Below are positions 6,470 to 10,798 of a stretch of 64,000 nucleotides of DNA, piece after piece. Location of the stretch: the NCBI GenBank assembly GCA_000165345.1, contig CM000436.1, forward strand, positions 1,280,713-1,344,712, read 5' to 3'. Made by a program: the position numbers and the translations under genes. How positions within the stretch are numbered: the stretch's first letter is position 1; each line of letters starts with the position of its first letter. The notes beneath the pieces were generated by a model. It made no database searches. It saw only the letters and a program-made list of their open reading frames with translations, and was not told the DNA's origin.

Positions 6470-9400
6470 TTAAAGCATTATTAATTCTTCAGTTATGCAT
6501 TTGCACTCTGAAAGCTTGTTTTCGCAGTTAGTGCAAATAGGTAGTTGAGGGGAATTCTCATCCAGAATATGGTTATCAAATAGTTTGGGAATATTACATT
6601 TAGTATGAAAACTGAGATCCATTATCACTTTTGAAAGCATTCTTCTGGTGGAATTGCTAGAAAAATGCTTTTCTCCCAAAGTGTATGGAGTTGTGAAAAT
6701 TGAATAAGGTACTTTTGCATTGAAGTAGTATAGATTTGTAGATCTTTCAAATGAATGAAATTCAGTATTTTCAATAAGGATGATGAAATCCCTATAGTCG
6801 AGCTCTCCAGAATTTATGAATGCTCTCTTTAATTTATTGTTAACCCTCTCACACATTCTTAAATCTGAATCGTGAGATCCCATAGAATGCACTCTAACAA
6901 ATACCTTTGATCCCATAGAAGTGAGTAAAAGTACTTTGAATTCAAAACAGTGTTCAAATCCTCTTTTTCTCTCTTCAATTTGATATACCTGAAGAATAAG
7001 TCCCAAAATACGTATTGGCCACCCTCCCTTACAGTTAATGATATTCTCTGGGTCATTTTCAAATGTTAAAACTGGCCTTTTTACAAAATCAATTACTCTA
7101 GTAAGGATAATATCATCATTAACTCTTTTCTTTGCAGTTAAAGAAGTTTTTGGAGATGGAACTAATTTGGAGAATGAACATCCTAGGCTTCTTATTGTAC
7201 TATTTTTAATAACTTTCATCCAAGAAAGTCGAATTACAGTCCCTGGTTTAATGCTCGTAATTTCGTCAATATCCATACCTGAAGGAAGAGTTAATATAGA
7301 GCAGTTATTAATTAATTCAAACATATCTATTTTTTGTTGATTTCTTTCCTTAAGATTCATAAACTTCCAGTAATCTAAAACAAGTAGTTTTGATTCTAAA
7401 GATATTTTCCTTCTCTTAGTATTTTCAATAGGAGAATCTTGTGAATCTGATTCTGGCTGTTGTAAACTTTTTTCATACATTTCATAGATTTCATTATTTA
7501 TTGAAATATCCATTTCATTTTGGTCTCTTGTAATAAAAATTCTTTTATTATCATCTTGTAAAGTTTCTATCATCTCTTTATAGCAAATTGGAAATATGTG
7601 AATAACTATTACCTGGACCAAAAAAGATAAACCTCCTCCTTTATCCATGCTACTATGCCTTTTCTCGTTATCATTTGGTTCCCTTGAAATAATGGAGATT
7701 TCTGAGCTATTTAAAAGTTTTGAAATCCTAAAAAGAAGTGGTTTTAAATGGAATCCAAGTTTAAATCCAGATAATTTTCTTATCGGTCTAACCAAATTGA
7801 TTCCATAAATCATTAATGGAAAATCCTGAGTTGAAGCTTCTATTTCCAATGGATGTCCATGTTCTATATTAGAATTTAACCAGTTACCACCACACAAAAA
7901 AATATTTCTAGGCATATTCTGAATCAAAGATTTAATTAAAGTAATGTTTGTGAGTATCTTTACTATATACCATCCATCTGTACATAACATGATTCTATTT
8001 GTATTGGAATCATTAAATTCATCTAATCCGACTTTGTCAGTATAACTTAATATTCTTAAATTTAAAGGTGCAGATACAGTGAAATCTCCCTCGCATATTT
8101 TTATTAGAGAAGATCTCTTTGCATCAAAAAATTCAATGATTGCTCTTTTGCAAATTCTTCTAAGAATTCTTTGTATTGAAGGATACTTTATTTGTGCTAA
8201 ATTTGAAAAAAGTAATTCTCTAGTCTTGTCAATTGAATTAAATCCATTAAATTCTTTAATAAATGCTTTAATAGTAGTTTTAATTTTCCTTGACCAGTTT
8301 AAACATTCTTCATATAGAATTAGCATATACTGAACTTCGAGCCACCTCTGTCTGTACCGAGACATATTACTTGGAAATATTGGGAATTGAATAAAGAAAT
8401 TCTCAATCTCGTCACAAATCATCCTAAAATCTACTTCAATATACTTTCCTTTAGAATCATCTGTTTCTTTAGTATCTTTTAAGAGAAAAGTGTACTTCTT
8501 CAAAGTTTCTAACGAATGATCAATCAAAATTAATGTTGGTGGAATTACCTTTCTCGATTTTAAACATGCTAATGAGTATTGAATACTATCATATCTTTTG
8601 AAAAACTTGGGTATAACTAATTCTTCCCTAGTTAGCTTTCTATTCTTTTTATTTAAAGTATTTTCATAATTATTTCTTTGTAATAAATTGGGATACATAT
8701 TACTTTTTGTTTTTCCCAAAACATTGCATCCGATTCCTAATTTTGCATCATCCTTTAATGATTGTTTTATCGTTTCTTTGACTGAAGTTATACTAGCATT
8801 TTCTATTTCACTTTCAAACCCTCCTACCAGTTTCTTTGCTTTGTTTAGGCTTTCCTCATCTATCGATACCTTTTTTCCACTACCAGTGGAAAATGAAATG
8901 GACATGTTACCTCCAATTGGTGATCCTCCTGAAGGGGACCCTCCTACTAGTTTCTTGGCTCTATTTAAACTTTCCTCATCTATCGATACGCTTTTTCCAC
9001 TGGCTGTGGAAAACGAAATAGGAATGTTACGACCAATTGGTGATCCTCCTGAAGGAGAACCTCCTACTATTTGCTTAGCCCTACTCAAGCTCTCTTCAGT
9101 GATTGATACCTTTTTTCCGCTCCCAGTGGAAAATGAAATGGACATGTTACCTCCAATTGGTGATCCTCCTGTAGGGGACCCTCCTACTAGTTTCTTGGCT
9201 CTATTTAAACTTTCCTCATCTATCGATACACTTTTTCCACTGGCTGTGGAAAACGAAATAGGCATGTTACGACCAATTGGTGATCCTCCTGAAGGAGAAC
9301 CTCCTACTATTTGCTTAGCCCTACTCAAGCTCTCCTCATCTATCGATACCTGTTTTCCGCTCCCAGTGGAAAATGAAATGGGAAAGTTACCTCCAATTGG

Positions 9401-10798
9401 TGATCCTCCTACTATTTGCTTAGCTCTATTCAAGCTCTCTTCAGTGATTGATACCTTTTTTCCACTACCAGTGGAAAATGAAATGGGCATGCTACTTCCA
9501 ATTAGTGATCCTCCTAAAGGTGAACCTCCTACTATTTGCTTAGCCCTACTCAAGCTCTCTTCAGTGATTGATACCTTTTTTCCGCTCCCAGCGGAAAATG
9601 AAATGGGCAAGTTACCTCCAATTGGTGATCCTCCTAAAGGTGAACCTCCTACTATATGCTTACCTCTGTTAAAGTTTTCTTCATCTATTGATACTTTTTT
9701 CCCACTCCCAGTGGAAAATGAAATGGGTAAATTAGTTCCAGTCTTGGACCTTCCAACTATGTTATTTTTTAACTTTTCAGTTGCAGTAAACCTGTCCAAA
9801 TTAATTGAAGCATTTTCAGCAATCCCAAAAGAATGTGAAAAACAAAAGTTGTTTTCTGATTCAAATTGGCTTTCTTTTTCCTGTTGAAAATGATCGACTA
9901 ACTCAATATTATCGCTTTTATTTTCTATAATATTTTTTGTACAAAAATTATTAGAAAATGGTAGATTTTTATCCTCAATAAAGTAATTTTCTTTGTCTAA
10001 ACAATTACTTGAGTCCATAAAATTATCTTTTTCCTTACATTCATTTTTTGAAACCATCCCATCAATTTTGAATGAAATTAAATTTTGAACATCAAATTCA
10101 TTGAATTGTTTTTCTCCCATTTCTTTATCAAATCCAAAAGTATTATTAAAACTATTTGACTTTATTGATATTCCTCGATCAATAATTATATCAGTTTCAC
10201 TCTCCATAAAATCTTCAAGTTTATTACCATTGAATAGGACTTGATCTTTATTTGTATAATAAATTTCTGATATATTACGAGATTTTTCTGTCCCTCTAAT
10301 TTCTCTTTGAAGAAAGTTAGTGTTATCATTCATTGATTTATCAGATTTATCAGAAACTCTTGTTTTTAAATCTGCTTTATTATTACTTTTGAAACTTGAA
10401 CTCCCAACAAAACTCATTATATTTTGTAGAAACTCCTCGTTAGTTTGCTCAATCTTATTTAAAATGTTATTAGTATTTTTATTCTTAATTTTGCTTTCAA
10501 ACATCTTAGATGTAGCATGAGCTTCTGTTCCTAAATCAGTTTTCTTATTACCAATTAATAATTCACCTAGAGTTGGTTTTGAAATAGTATTGGAAAATAA
10601 ATTGTGATTTTTTGAAGCAGCTTCACAGTTCTCTAAAACTTTGGAAGAATTCAATAAATCTGACTCAAAGAATTTCTTGATTTCATCATCTTCATTAAGA
10701 AGAATTTCCTGGTTTACACCATCTGTATTCGAACCAATATTTCCTTGAAACAACTCATCCAATAGGCATTGTCCAAGCTCATCCTCATCCTTAGACAT
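6470..10798 (-). CDS. BRCA2: BRCA2-like recombination mediator with 8 BRC repeats
   Basis: 1442-aa ORF with ATG at 10798. Eight tandem ~40-aa units of the form PISFSTGSGKKVSITEESLSRAKQIVGGSP match the BRC consensus F-x-T-A-S-G-K...S-L-x-K-A (compare human BRC4 [23 protein letters not shown]). A long C-terminal region after the repeats would correspond to the DNA-binding domain. Confidence 0.7.
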   Translation of the reverse strand: MSKDEDELGQCLLDELFQGNIGSNTDGVNQEILLNEDDEIKKFFESDLLNSSKVLENCEAASKNHNLFSNTISKPTLGELLIGNKKTDLGTEAHATSKMFESKIKNKNTNNILNKIEQTNEEFLQNIMSFVGSSSFKSNNKADLKTRVSDKSDKSMNDNTNFLQREIRGTEKSRNISEIYYTNKDQVLFNGNKLEDFMESETDIIIDRGISIKSNSFNNTFGFDKEMGEKQFNEFDVQNLISFKIDGMVSKNECKEKDNFMDSSNCLDKENYFIEDKNLPFSNNFCTKNIIENKSDNIELVDHFQQEKESQFESENNFCFSHSFGIAENASINLDRFTATEKLKNNIVGRSKTGTNLPISFSTGSGKKVSIDEENFNRGKHIVGGSPLGGSPIGGNLPISFSAGSGKKVSITEESLSRAKQIVGGSPLGGSLIGSSMPISFSTGSGKKVSITEESLNRAKQIVGGSPIGGNFPISFSTGSGKQVSIDEESLSRAKQIVGGSPSGGSPIGRNMPISFSTASGKSVSIDEESLNRAKKLVGGSPTGGSPIGGNMSISFSTGSGKKVSITEESLSRAKQIVGGSPSGGSPIGRNIPISFSTASGKSVSIDEESLNRAKKLVGGSPSGGSPIGGNMSISFSTGSGKKVSIDEESLNKAKKLVGGFESEIENASITSVKETIKQSLKDDAKLGIGCNVLGKTKSNMYPNLLQRNNYENTLNKKNRKLTREELVIPKFFKRYDSIQYSLACLKSRKVIPPTLILIDHSLETLKKYTFLLKDTKETDDSKGKYIEVDFRMICDEIENFFIQFPIFPSNMSRYRQRWLEVQYMLILYEECLNWSRKIKTTIKAFIKEFNGFNSIDKTRELLFSNLAQIKYPSIQRILRRICKRAIIEFFDAKRSSLIKICEGDFTVSAPLNLRILSYTDKVGLDEFNDSNTNRIMLCTDGWYIVKILTNITLIKSLIQNMPRNIFLCGGNWLNSNIEHGHPLEIEASTQDFPLMIYGINLVRPIRKLSGFKLGFHLKPLLFRISKLLNSSEISIISREPNDNEKRHSSMDKGGGLSFLVQVIVIHIFPICYKEMIETLQDDNKRIFITRDQNEMDISINNEIYEMYEKSLQQPESDSQDSPIENTKRRKISLESKLLVLDYWKFMNLKERNQQKIDMFELINNCSILTLPSGMDIDEITSIKPGTVIRLSWMKVIKNSTIRSLGCSFSKLVPSPKTSLTAKKRVNDDIILTRVIDFVKRPVLTFENDPENIINCKGGWPIRILGLILQVYQIEERKRGFEHCFEFKVLLLTSMGSKVFVRVHSMGSHDSDLRMCERVNNKLKRAFINSGELDYRDFIILIENTEFHSFERSTNLYYFNAKVPYSIFTTPYTLGEKHFSSNSTRRMLSKVIMDLSFHTKCNIPKLFDNHILDENSPQLPICTNCENKLSECKCITEELIML
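8815..9745 (-). repeat. In-frame tandem array of 8 BRC-repeat coding units, organised as ~240-nt higher-order repeats (two alternating ~120-nt variants)
   Basis: Near-identical 240-nt blocks, e.g. 8941-9180 against 9181-9420. The spurious plus-strand ORF 8688-9887 is the antisense reading of this array. Confidence 0.7.

What the first reader, a model, noticed from the sequence alone, without database searches (positions are those of the whole stretch)
6470..10798. BRCA2 homolog with eight near-identical BRC repeats arranged as 240-nt higher-order DNA repeats
The repeat PISFSTGSGKKVSITEESLSRAKQIVGG matches the RAD51-binding BRC motif (FxTASGK...SLxKA). Eight copies equals the human count, but here they are almost identical at the nucleotide level and alternate between two variants. 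That pattern implies recent expansion or ongoing homogenisation by unequal crossing-over within the gene. The copy number is likely strain-polymorphic and easily mis-assembled. The array also generates a 399-aa antisense pseudo-ORF (8688-9887) that could be mis-annotated.
Basis: partly seen in the sequence, partly recalled or inferred. Interest (0 to 1): 0.6.

Follow-up and report, generated by a model that had tools for sequence, protein, structure and literature searches.

The report
Cryptosporidium BRCA2 with tandem BRC repeats
This is the already catalogued BRCA2 DNA-repair gene of the parasite Cryptosporidium parvum; its eight RAD51-binding repeats form a regular tandem array made mostly of old, selectively maintained units plus one recent duplication, so it is a correct but largely ordinary finding.

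Summary
The ORF at 6470-10798 (-) is real and encodes 1442 aa. It matches C. parvum Iowa II EAK89641.1 exactly.

Why it is BRCA2:
- Pfam finds 8 BRC repeats (E = 2e-63) and BRCA2 OB1 above its curated cut-off.
- The C. muris orthologue hits OB1 at 55 bits.
- An AlphaFold model of the last 388 aa has the three BRCA2-DSS1 crystal structures as its best PDB matches (E = 6e-12 to 2.5e-9).
- Hartley & McCulloch (2008) already listed C. parvum BRCA2 with 6-8 BRC repeats.

What was overstated:
- The repeats are not "almost identical". The 84-nt cores are 73-99% identical.
- The two unit types differ by dS ~1.55 and dN ~0.13, so they are ancient and under purifying selection.
- The 240-nt periodicity holds only for units 4-8. 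It reflects one recent duplication of 212 nt at 98.6% identity.

Other results:
- C. parvum and C. hominis both have 8 units, but through offsetting changes of -237, -15 and +240 nt.
- Other species in the genus have 2-8 units.
- No copy-number variation appears among the protein records from 5 C. parvum and at least 5 C. hominis assemblies.
- The antisense ORF is a forced by-product of the peptide sequence.

The parts
6470..10798 (-). Complete intron-less CDS of Cryptosporidium parvum BRCA2 (1442 aa plus stop)
   Evidence: ORF listed. Exact match to EAK89641.1, QOY40288.1, WKS79786.1 and WRK34286.1. Pfam BRC x8 plus OB1.
9728..10798 (-). N-terminal region (aa 1-357): fast-evolving, no recognisable domain
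   Evidence: No Pfam hit. Over aa 1-345, C. parvum vs C. hominis gives dN 0.041 and dS 0.061. The 900 nt upstream of the array are only 64-67% identical to chipmunk genotype I and C. ubiquitum.
8819..9727 (-). Tandem array of eight BRC repeats (28-aa core plus 12-aa Gly/Pro/Ser linker; 120-nt period, with one 105-nt unit). Cores: 9644-9727, 9524-9607, 9404-9487, 9299-9382, 9179-9262, 9059-9142, 8939-9022, 8819-8902
   Evidence: Register against human BRC4 (1N0W chain B) comes from the profile alignment.
9123..9334 (-). Copy 1 of the recent 212-nt duplication (3' part of unit 4, unit 5, 5' start of unit 6)
   Evidence: Only 3 mismatches at lag 240 over 212 nt.
8883..9094 (-). Copy 2 of the recent 212-nt duplication (3' part of unit 6, unit 7, 5' start of unit 8)
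   Evidence: C. hominis lacks this copy (offset jump from 252 to 12).
7748..8110 (-). BRCA2 OB1 domain (aa 897-1017)
   Evidence: PF09103 at 27.8 bits against a cut-off of 25.6. The C. muris orthologue scores 55.4 bits. An exhaustive profile search retrieves one outside protein, P0022, which is itself OB1 at 105 bits. hhalign recovers the motifs RSSLIKICEGDFT, CTDGWY and KLGFH.
8111..8659 (-). Probable BRCA2 helical domain (about aa 714-896)
   Evidence: hhalign to the vertebrate DBD at E = 3.9e-6 starts at C-terminal residue 54. This is the most confident part of model 1 (pLDDT 60-85), and that model's best PDB hit is 1MJE_A. Pfam PF09169 itself is not detected, so the assignment is tentative.
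6473..7636 (-). C-terminal tandem OB-fold region (aa 1055-1442), equivalent to BRCA2 OB2-OB3, with at most a rudimentary tower
   Evidence: AF2 model with pLDDT 64.5 and pTM 0.65. Foldseek PDB top three are 1MJE_A (6.3e-12), 1IYJ_B (9.7e-10) and 1MIU_A (2.5e-9), followed by RPA70, TEBP, CST and POT1. No Pfam Tower, OB3 or TR2 hit.
6497..6535 (-). Conserved C-terminal CxxC-x6-CxC motif (CTNCENKLSECKC, aa 1422-1434), function unknown
   Evidence: Conserved from C. parvum to C. muris (CATCGVVLTNCTC). It lies in a low-confidence part of the model.
8688..9887 (+). Antisense 399-aa pseudo-ORF, a by-product of the array
   Evidence: No Pfam hit. One antisense frame stays stop-free in 2000 of 2000 synonymous re-codings of the array, and the same frame is open in all six species.

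Best explanation
The locus is the single-exon BRCA2 orthologue of Cryptosporidium parvum.

Anatomy (shown):
- A poorly conserved N-terminal region.
- Eight BRC motifs packed head to tail at a 40-aa period, each a 28-aa motif followed by a 12-aa Gly/Pro/Ser linker.
- A highly divergent BRCA2-type DNA-binding domain: a probable helical domain, OB1, then two further OB folds.

Protein function (inferred from the family):
- Each BRC unit binds one RAD51 protomer, and possibly DMC1. Binding would use the F-S-T-G/A hairpin, which mimics the RAD51 self-association motif, plus the following amphipathic helix (EESLxRAKxIV).
- The OB folds bind single-stranded DNA.
- Together they would deliver RAD51 to resected breaks during repair and during post-fertilisation meiosis.

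DNA-level dynamics (shown by comparison):
- The array is a coding minisatellite that changes by in-frame, unit-sized unequal exchange or conversion.
- It is not homogenised. Its unit types are far older than the C. parvum / C. hominis split and are held by purifying selection.
- C. parvum carries one recent 240-nt, two-unit duplication. That duplication creates the local higher-order periodicity.
For: Identity:
- Pfam BRC x8 at E = 2.1e-63, and OB1 above its gathering score.
- Orthologues in 10 other Cryptosporidium species, several named 'BRCA2 family'. The six loci fetched are syntenic: PAP2 gene, tRNA-Ala, BRCA2, then a ~1019-aa gene.
- C. muris OB1 scores 55 bits.
- An unbiased search of 1.84 billion representatives retrieves only Cryptosporidium proteins plus one BRCA2-OB1 protein.
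- hhalign to a vertebrate DBD gives E = 3.9e-6 with hallmark motifs.
- BRCA2-DSS1 structures are the top PDB fold hits for both models.
- Hartley & McCulloch 2008 (PMC2408642) list C. parvum BRCA2 with 6-8 BRC repeats.

Functional constraint on the repeats:
- Mean dN/dS between units is 0.11. Type A vs type B gives dN 0.13 and dS 1.55.
- F, S, G-K, I, E-E, L and A-K are invariant or nearly so across the 41 units of the six intestinal-clade species. The five C. muris / C. andersoni units were extracted one residue out of register.

Array dynamics:
- Identity matrix and cross-species best matches, lag profiles, and the path analysis giving -237, -15 and +240 nt against C. hominis.
- Unit counts are 8, 8, 6, 5, 6 and 8 in the intestinal clade, and 3 and 2 in C. 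muris and C. andersoni.

Pathway context: RAD51 antibody stains post-fertilisation stages, and DMC1, Spo11 and HOP2 are female-enriched in C. parvum (PMC6877471).
Against: - RAD51 binding by these units has not been tested.
- 40 of 46 units in the genus carry FxxG rather than the canonical FxxA. The LFDE module is replaced by I/L-V-G-G, which lacks the acidic residue.
- In Leishmania an A-to-G change lowered affinity about 3-fold, although LFDE was dispensable there (PMC9162458).
- Pfam does not detect the helical, Tower, OB2, OB3 or TR2 models.
- Both AF2 models rest on only 10 sequences from one genus. Their confidence is moderate to poor (pLDDT 42.7 and 64.5) and TM-scores to BRCA2 are about 0.4.
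- The C. tyzzeri unit count comes from an imperfect short-read assembly.
Confidence: 0.88

Rival explanations
1. One reading: all eight units are being actively homogenised (concerted evolution), so they are nearly identical and the copy number varies between strains.
For: - In the more distant species, units resemble each other more than they resemble units of other species. C. meleagridis units 2-5 are 94-95% identical within the species and at most 92% to any other species. C. ubiquitum is 93-95% within and at most 83% outside. Chipmunk genotype I units 3 and 4 are 100% identical.
- C. parvum has one 98.6%-identical 212-nt duplication.
- T. brucei BRCA2 behaves this way, with 14 identical units and strain-variable number (PMC2408642).
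Against: - Within C. parvum the cores are 73-99% identical. Type A vs type B dS is 1.55, against an interspecies dS of 0.06-0.07.
- Mean within-species identity in C. parvum (82.1%) is lower than C. parvum vs C. hominis or C. tyzzeri (83.7-84.7%).
- The C. parvum records, from five assemblies, and six C. hominis records show no length change in the array.
Confidence: 0.1
2. The array is a neutral coding minisatellite (low-complexity expansion) with no RAD51-binding role. Only the C-terminal domain matters.
For: - FxxG replaces FxxA in most units, and there is no LFDE acidic residue.
- Copy number varies from 2 to 8 across the genus without obvious consequence.
- In T. brucei a single BRC repeat sufficed for VSG switching (PMC2408642).
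Against: - Purifying selection is strong: dN/dS is about 0.1 while synonymous sites are saturated.
- Each unit scores about 26 bits against Pfam BRC (209.5 bits over 8 units).
- Key positions are invariant or nearly so across the 41 intestinal-clade units.
- The linkers vary while the cores do not.
Confidence: 0.05
3. The array length or order is an assembly artefact (collapsed or expanded repeats).
For: - Repeats with a 120-nt period and up to 99% identity can mislead short-read assemblers.
- The C. tyzzeri short-read assembly has a gap in this gene.
- The C. ubiquitum gene model is mis-fused with the upstream gene.
Against: - The identical 1442-aa protein occurs on four chromosome-scale C. 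parvum contigs (each over 1 Mb), and four C. parvum accessions carry it, including the original Iowa II record.
- The array DNA is identical between the window and GCA_031892065.1.
- Most unit pairs differ at 10-27% of sites, which is enough to anchor reads.
Confidence: 0.03

Closest known systems
Trypanosoma brucei BRCA2 (Hartley & McCulloch 2008, PMC2408642; Trenaman et al. 2013, PMC3553974)
   Same: - BRC repeats form a regular head-to-tail array with short fixed spacing (44 aa there, 40 aa here).
- The terminal unit is the divergent one.
- The array expanded relative to related species.
- Expansion and contraction by recombination between units is inferred.
   Different: - T. brucei has 15 units, 14 of them identical (fewer than one base change per unit), with strain-variable number and an expansion absent from close relatives.
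- Here the units are 73-99% identical with ancient types (dS > 1).
- No intraspecific length variation is seen.
- The expansion (5-8 units) is shared by a whole clade.
Drosophila yakuba dmbrca2 BRC array (Bennett, Mercer & Noor 2010, PMC2882388)
   Same: Unit-sized gains and losses by unequal crossing-over, and homoplasy in repeat number: the same count is reached by different histories, as in C. parvum vs C. hominis.
   Different: - In D. yakuba the length forms segregate within the species.
- The Cryptosporidium differences seen here are between species only.
Human/vertebrate BRCA2 (structures 1N0W, 1MIU, 1MJE, 1IYJ)
   Same: - Eight BRC motifs.
- FxxA-type hairpin followed by a helix.
- A C-terminal DNA-binding domain containing OB1 and additional OB folds.
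- These structures are the best fold matches.
   Different: - Human repeats are dispersed over about 1000 aa and are degenerate.
- Human BRCA2 has the LFDE module, a long tower, TR2 and a PALB2-binding N-terminus. None of these is detected here.
- The protein here is 1442 aa against 3418 aa.
- The equal count of eight is coincidental.
Leishmania infantum BRCA2 BRC1/BRC2 (Pantelejevs & Hyvonen 2022, PMC9162458; PDB 7QV8)
   Same: - A protozoan BRC lacking a functional LFDE module.
- A glycine variant (FxxG) occurs naturally in LiBRC2.
   Different: - Leishmania has only two repeats.
- Its extended hairpin contacts (Thr at -2, Leu at -1) are not evident in the Cryptosporidium units (N-[MLF]-P-I-S-F).
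Plasmodium berghei Brca2 (PMC9270840)
   Same: An apicomplexan BRCA2 with BRC repeats plus OB folds. Its repeats bind only the cognate Rad51, and knockout impairs sexual and sporogonic development.
   Different: [quoted passage not shown] They are not arranged as a regular tandem array.

Membership tests
BRCA2 family | At least one BRC repeat (PF00634) | tested here: met
   Eight stretches, 209.5 bits in total, E = 2.1e-63. The profile aligns to human BRC4 of 1N0W in register.
BRCA2 family | BRCA2 OB1 domain (PF09103) | tested here: met
   27.8 bits against a curated cut-off of 25.6 at aa 897-1017. The C. muris orthologue scores 55.4 bits. The reciprocal hit P0022 scores 105 bits on OB1.
BRCA2 family | Helical domain (PF09169) preceding OB1 | tested here: inconclusive
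   No Pfam hit. hhalign to a vertebrate DBD (E = 3.9e-6) spans it. Model 1 predicts helices there, and its best PDB hit is 1MJE_A over 166 columns.
BRCA2 family | Additional OB folds (OB2, OB3) after OB1 | tested here: met
   Met at fold level only. The model of aa 1055-1442 has 1MJE_A, 1IYJ_B and 1MIU_A as its top three PDB hits (E = 6e-12 to 2.5e-9, 371-420 columns), followed by generic tandem-OB proteins. Pfam OB2 and OB3 are not detected. Model confidence is moderate (pLDDT 64.5).
BRCA2 family | Tower domain inserted in OB2 (PF09121) | tested here: not met
   No Pfam hit. The model shows only one ~20-residue helix followed by an acidic disordered loop at the equivalent place. The tower is also reduced or absent in some other small BRCA2 orthologues (own knowledge), so it is not strictly defining.
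BRCA2 family | Physical binding of RAD51 by the BRC repeats, and DSS1 binding by the DBD | not testable with these tools
   Needs biochemistry or a co-folding prediction.
T. brucei-type tandem identical BRC array | Regular head-to-tail array with fixed period | tested here: met
   40-aa (120-nt) period, with one 35-aa unit.
T. brucei-type tandem identical BRC array | Units virtually identical at nucleotide level | tested here: not met
   Core identity is 72.6-98.8%. dS between the unit types is about 1.55.
T. brucei-type tandem identical BRC array | Copy number varies between strains | tested here: not met
   The C. parvum records (five assemblies) and six C. hominis records show the same array length within each species. 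The sample is small, and the isolate identities were not checked.

The most novel reading that the evidence does not exclude
The two long-lived unit types are functionally specialised. The majority type has FSTG...KQIVGG. The rarer type has canonical FSTA...KKLVGG and is kept near the C-terminal end of the array in C. parvum, C. hominis and C. tyzzeri. They could, for example, prefer RAD51 vs DMC1, or free vs filament-bound RAD51, as proposed for human BRC1-4 vs BRC5-8. Under this reading the total of about eight sites is under stabilising selection, which would explain why C. parvum and C. hominis both have eight after offsetting two-unit loss and gain.
Probability: 0.15. Interest if true: 0.45.

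Novelty: already known. Interest (0 to 1): 0.22.

Why it matters
Practical value lies mainly in annotation:
- GenBank names for this gene and its orthologues ('hypothetical protein', 'BRCT repeat containing protein', 'BCRT domain-containing protein') are wrong or garbled. They should read BRCA2 homologue.
- The C. ubiquitum model is fused to the upstream gene across a tRNA.
- The C. tyzzeri model is truncated by an assembly gap.

Biologically, Cryptosporidium relies on homologous recombination for repair, for its obligatory meiosis, and for CRISPR-based transgenesis. A compact 1442-aa BRCA2 with eight closely spaced sites, mostly FxxG-type, is a tractable system for two questions. Why do some BRCA2 proteins need many BRC repeats? 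How much do the alanine and the LFDE module matter? The cross-species turnover gives a second protozoan example of BRC-array dynamics, after T. brucei. None of this would surprise a specialist.

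Tried and rejected
1. PDB sequence search with the whole protein. The top hits were designer 'Pizza' beta-propeller repeat proteins (E ~3e-4). I rejected these as periodicity artefacts of the Gly/Ser-rich 40-aa repeat. The genuine BRC peptide hits (8UVW, 7QV8, 1N0W) ranked below them.
2. Pfam DUF6429 hit inside the array. It is below the cut-off (20.4 vs 31.6 bits), so I rejected it.
3. AF2 on the whole 782-aa C-terminal region. The model was poor (pLDDT 42.7) and I used it only cautiously. 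Re-running on the last 388 aa gave a usable model.
4. hhalign with the full-length alignment. It reported only the BRC region. Trimming to the C-terminal columns and running locally solved this.
5. Word-indexed homologue search with the C-terminal domain, once as a single sequence and once as a profile. Only Cryptosporidium proteins were found.
6. Exhaustive HMMER search. It found one outside protein, so no deep alignment could be built.
7. E2F-type box upstream of the gene. None is present in the 530-bp spacer, and the window-wide count is not above chance.
8. Literature search by accession or locus tag. Nothing specific to this gene turned up.
9. Antisense ORF as a real gene. Rejected.

Full report
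**Observation**

The window is AT-rich (about 30-35% GC) and intron-poor. ORF 6470..10798 on the minus strand encodes 1442 aa.

Tandem Repeats Finder places an array at 8818-9726. Period 120 gives 76% matches and period 240 gives 86%. It is the largest tandem repeat in the 64-kb window.

Translation shows eight units whose 28-aa cores ([PS]ISFS[TA][GA]SGK...VGG) start at aa 358, 398, 438, 473, 513, 553, 593 and 633. They are separated by 12-aa Gly/Pro/Ser linkers, with one 7-aa linker. The antisense 399-aa ORF at 8688..9887 is also present. The physical description is therefore right.

**Where the description is overstated**

- Pairwise identity of the 84-nt cores runs from 72.6% to 98.8%. Only Cp5/Cp7 (98.8%) and Cp2/Cp6 (97.6%) are near-identical.
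- Going by the C-terminal motif, the unit order is A' A A A B A B B', so alternation covers only units 4-7.
- In units 4-8, self-identity is 91% at lag 240 against 80% at lag 120. In units 1-3, lag 120 (85%) exceeds lag 240 (78%).
- The 240-nt signal comes from one duplicated segment. Window 9123-9334 recurs at 8883-9094 with 3 mismatches in 212 nt.

**Identity of the gene**

- Pfam gives PF00634 (BRC) eight times (209.5 bits, E = 2.1e-63). It gives PF09103 (BRCA2 OB1) at aa 897-1017 with 27.8 bits against a curated cut-off of 25.6.
- The protein is an exact match to C. parvum Iowa II EAK89641.1 and three further C. parvum accessions, and lies on four chromosome-scale contigs. Their names are 'hypothetical protein' or 'possible BCRT domain'.
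- Orthologues were found in C. hominis, C. meleagridis, C. tyzzeri, chipmunk genotype I, C. ubiquitum, C. canis, C. ryanae, C. bovis, C. muris and C. andersoni. Some are named 'BRCA2 family'. Others are misnamed 'BRCT repeat' or 'BCRT domain'.
- The six loci I fetched are syntenic: PAP2-family gene, tRNA-Ala(CGC), BRCA2, then a ~1019-aa gene.
[quoted passage not shown] The gene identification is therefore not new.

**The C-terminal domain**

It is very divergent.

- Word-indexed searches with the domain alone, or with a genus profile, found only Cryptosporidium proteins.
- An exhaustive HMMER search of 1.84 billion representatives found only three Cryptosporidium proteins and one outsider, P0022 (E = 1.7e-5). 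P0022 is itself a strong BRCA2-OB1 protein (105 bits).
- The C. muris orthologue hits OB1 at 55.4 bits.
- A local hhalign of the trimmed genus alignment against a vertebrate BRCA2 DNA-binding domain gave E = 3.9e-6 over residues 54-626. It aligned the hallmark motifs RSSLIKICEGDFT / RPALRKITEKDDT, CTDGWY / LTDGWY and KLGFH / KLGFH.
- AlphaFold2 on all 782 aa was poor (pLDDT 42.7). Even so, its two best PDB matches were the BRCA2-DSS1 structures 1MJE and 1IYJ.
- A model of the last 388 aa was usable (pLDDT 64.5, pTM 0.65). Its three best matches among 350,542 chains were 1MJE_A (6.3e-12), 1IYJ_B (9.7e-10) and 1MIU_A (2.5e-9). Generic tandem-OB ssDNA binders followed.
- I conclude that OB1 and two further OB folds are present and that a helical domain is probable. 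A tower is absent or rudimentary. No TR2 or PALB2-binding region is detectable.

**The BRC units as protein motifs**

- The profile alignment to human BRC4 (1N0W) sets the register. FHTA aligns with FSTG or FSTA, and LFDE with LVGG or IVGG.
- Across 46 units from eight species, FSTG occurs 40 times, FSTA 4 times (Cp5, Cp7, Chom7, Ctyz3) and FSAG twice.
- F, S, G-K, I, E-E, L and A-K are invariant or nearly so across the 41 units of the six intestinal-clade species. The five C. muris and C. andersoni units were extracted one residue out of register, so they do not count towards these per-position figures.
- In Leishmania, an FxxG version of BRC1 bound about 3-fold more weakly, and the LFDE-equivalent was dispensable (PMC9162458). 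The Cryptosporidium variant is therefore plausible as a binder, but this is untested.
- Nei-Gojobori estimates show strong constraint. The mean over unit pairs is dN 0.107 and dS 0.954. Type A vs type B gives dN 0.134 and dS 1.55.

**Array evolution**

- The same estimates date the units. The parvum-hominis flanks have dS 0.061-0.073. The A/B split (dS > 1) is therefore far older than these species. Only Cp5/Cp7 (dS 0.053, dN 0) and Cp2/Cp6 (dS 0) are young.
- Cross-species best matches show orthology for most units: Cp1-Ch1 96%, Cp3-Ch5 98%, Cp4-Ch6 98%, Cp5 and Cp7-Ch7 96%, Cp8-Ch8 98%. Ch3 and Ch4 have no close C. parvum partner.
- A sliding-window path of the C. parvum array along the C. 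hominis array shows offsets changing from 0 to 237, then 252, then 12. This corresponds to a ~237-nt loss, a 15-nt linker deletion and a 240-nt gain. The net is -12 nt, matching 1442 vs 1446 aa.
- The equal count of eight is thus homoplasy, as described for Drosophila yakuba dmbrca2 (PMC2882388).
- C. tyzzeri has six units with a 360-nt periodicity, and its units 2 and 5 are identical. C. meleagridis has five, chipmunk genotype I six, and C. ubiquitum eight.
- In those more distant species, units cluster by species. This indicates independent amplification and turnover over longer times.
- C. muris has three units at a 56-aa period and C. andersoni has two.

**Polymorphism and assembly**

- The four-accession C. 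parvum sequence and a fifth record (KAL5367267.1) are both 1442 aa. They differ only at F320L, outside the array.
- C. hominis records from at least five assemblies are 1446 aa with substitutions only outside the array. A sixth, the 2004 TU502 fragment, spans the array without gaps.
- Array DNA in the window is identical to that in GCA_031892065.1.
- This argues against frequent copy-number polymorphism or mis-assembly. I did not verify how independent the isolates are.
- The C. tyzzeri assembly has a gap (a single N replacing about 41 bp) in the non-repeat part of the gene, so its unit count needs confirmation.

**Antisense ORF**

It has no Pfam match. One antisense frame is stop-free in all six species, and in 2000 of 2000 synonymous re-codings of the array. 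The peptide sequence alone therefore guarantees it. It should not be annotated as a gene.

**Mechanism**

*Shown:* domain anatomy, purifying selection on the units, and unit-sized rearrangements.

*Inferred from the BRCA2 family* (1N0W; PMC9162458; PMC9270840; PMC3553974):
- Each unit binds one RAD51 protomer through the F-x-x-G/A hairpin and the following helix.
- Up to eight protomers would be carried on a flexible array.
- The OB folds bind ssDNA.
- Together they would load RAD51 at resected breaks in mitotic repair and in the post-fertilisation meiosis. RAD51 staining and female-enriched DMC1, Spo11 and HOP2 have been reported for those stages (PMC6877471).

**Verdict**

This is a correct identification of an already known gene. 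The description of repeat identity is exaggerated, and the predictions about polymorphism are unsupported. The incremental results are descriptive: ancient unit types, one recent two-unit duplication, homoplasious count, and FxxG as the genus norm. Interest is low to moderate.

Noticed in passing
window 11113-11185 (-): A tRNA-Ala(CGC) gene sits in the 530-bp spacer between the PAP2-family gene and BRCA2. It is syntenic in C. hominis, C. meleagridis, C. tyzzeri, chipmunk genotype I and C. ubiquitum.
   Followed up: yes
L005 3001-8740 (C. ubiquitum, protein P0005): The 1726-aa gene model fuses the upstream PAP2-family gene to BRCA2 and runs across the tRNA-Ala at L005 4056-4128. This is an annotation error.
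   Followed up: partly
L003 position 6501 (C. tyzzeri): A single N replaces about 41 bp of non-repeat BRCA2 coding sequence. This causes the truncated 1167-aa model P0003 and suggests the short-read assembly may also mis-state the BRC unit count.
   Followed up: partly
window 6497-6535 (-), aa 1422-1434: A conserved CxxC-x6-CxC motif (CTNCENKLSECKC) lies at the extreme C-terminus of BRCA2. It is kept from C. parvum to C. muris (CATCGVVLTNCTC). It could bind zinc; no known BRCA2 counterpart was identified.
   Followed up: no
window 26190-32972 (+), repeats at 28381-28973: A 2260-aa ORF contains a purine-rich stretch (GC 0.42, GC skew +0.56) of degenerate 63/69/171-nt tandem repeats encoding acidic Gly/Asp/Glu-rich low complexity.
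   Followed up: no
window 50136-50450: Short tandem repeats: 18 nt x 7.8 at 91% matches and 42 nt x 3.4 at 92%. Judged by unit length and similarity, these are better candidates for strain-variable VNTRs than the BRC array.
   Followed up: no
window 3034-6195 (-) and 11329-12246 (-): Neighbouring genes. One is a 1053-aa protein with only a sub-threshold HEAT-repeat hit. The other is a 305-aa PAP2-superfamily protein (33.1 bits against a cut-off of 27.2).
   Followed up: partly
GenBank names of P0002, P0003, P0005, P0013, P0015-P0017: Orthologues are named 'BRCT repeat containing protein' or 'BCRT domain-containing protein'. These names confuse BRC repeats of BRCA2 with the unrelated BRCT domain of BRCA1.
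   Followed up: yes
window 60001-62000: GC content drops to 0.20, the lowest in the window. Not examined.
   Followed up: no
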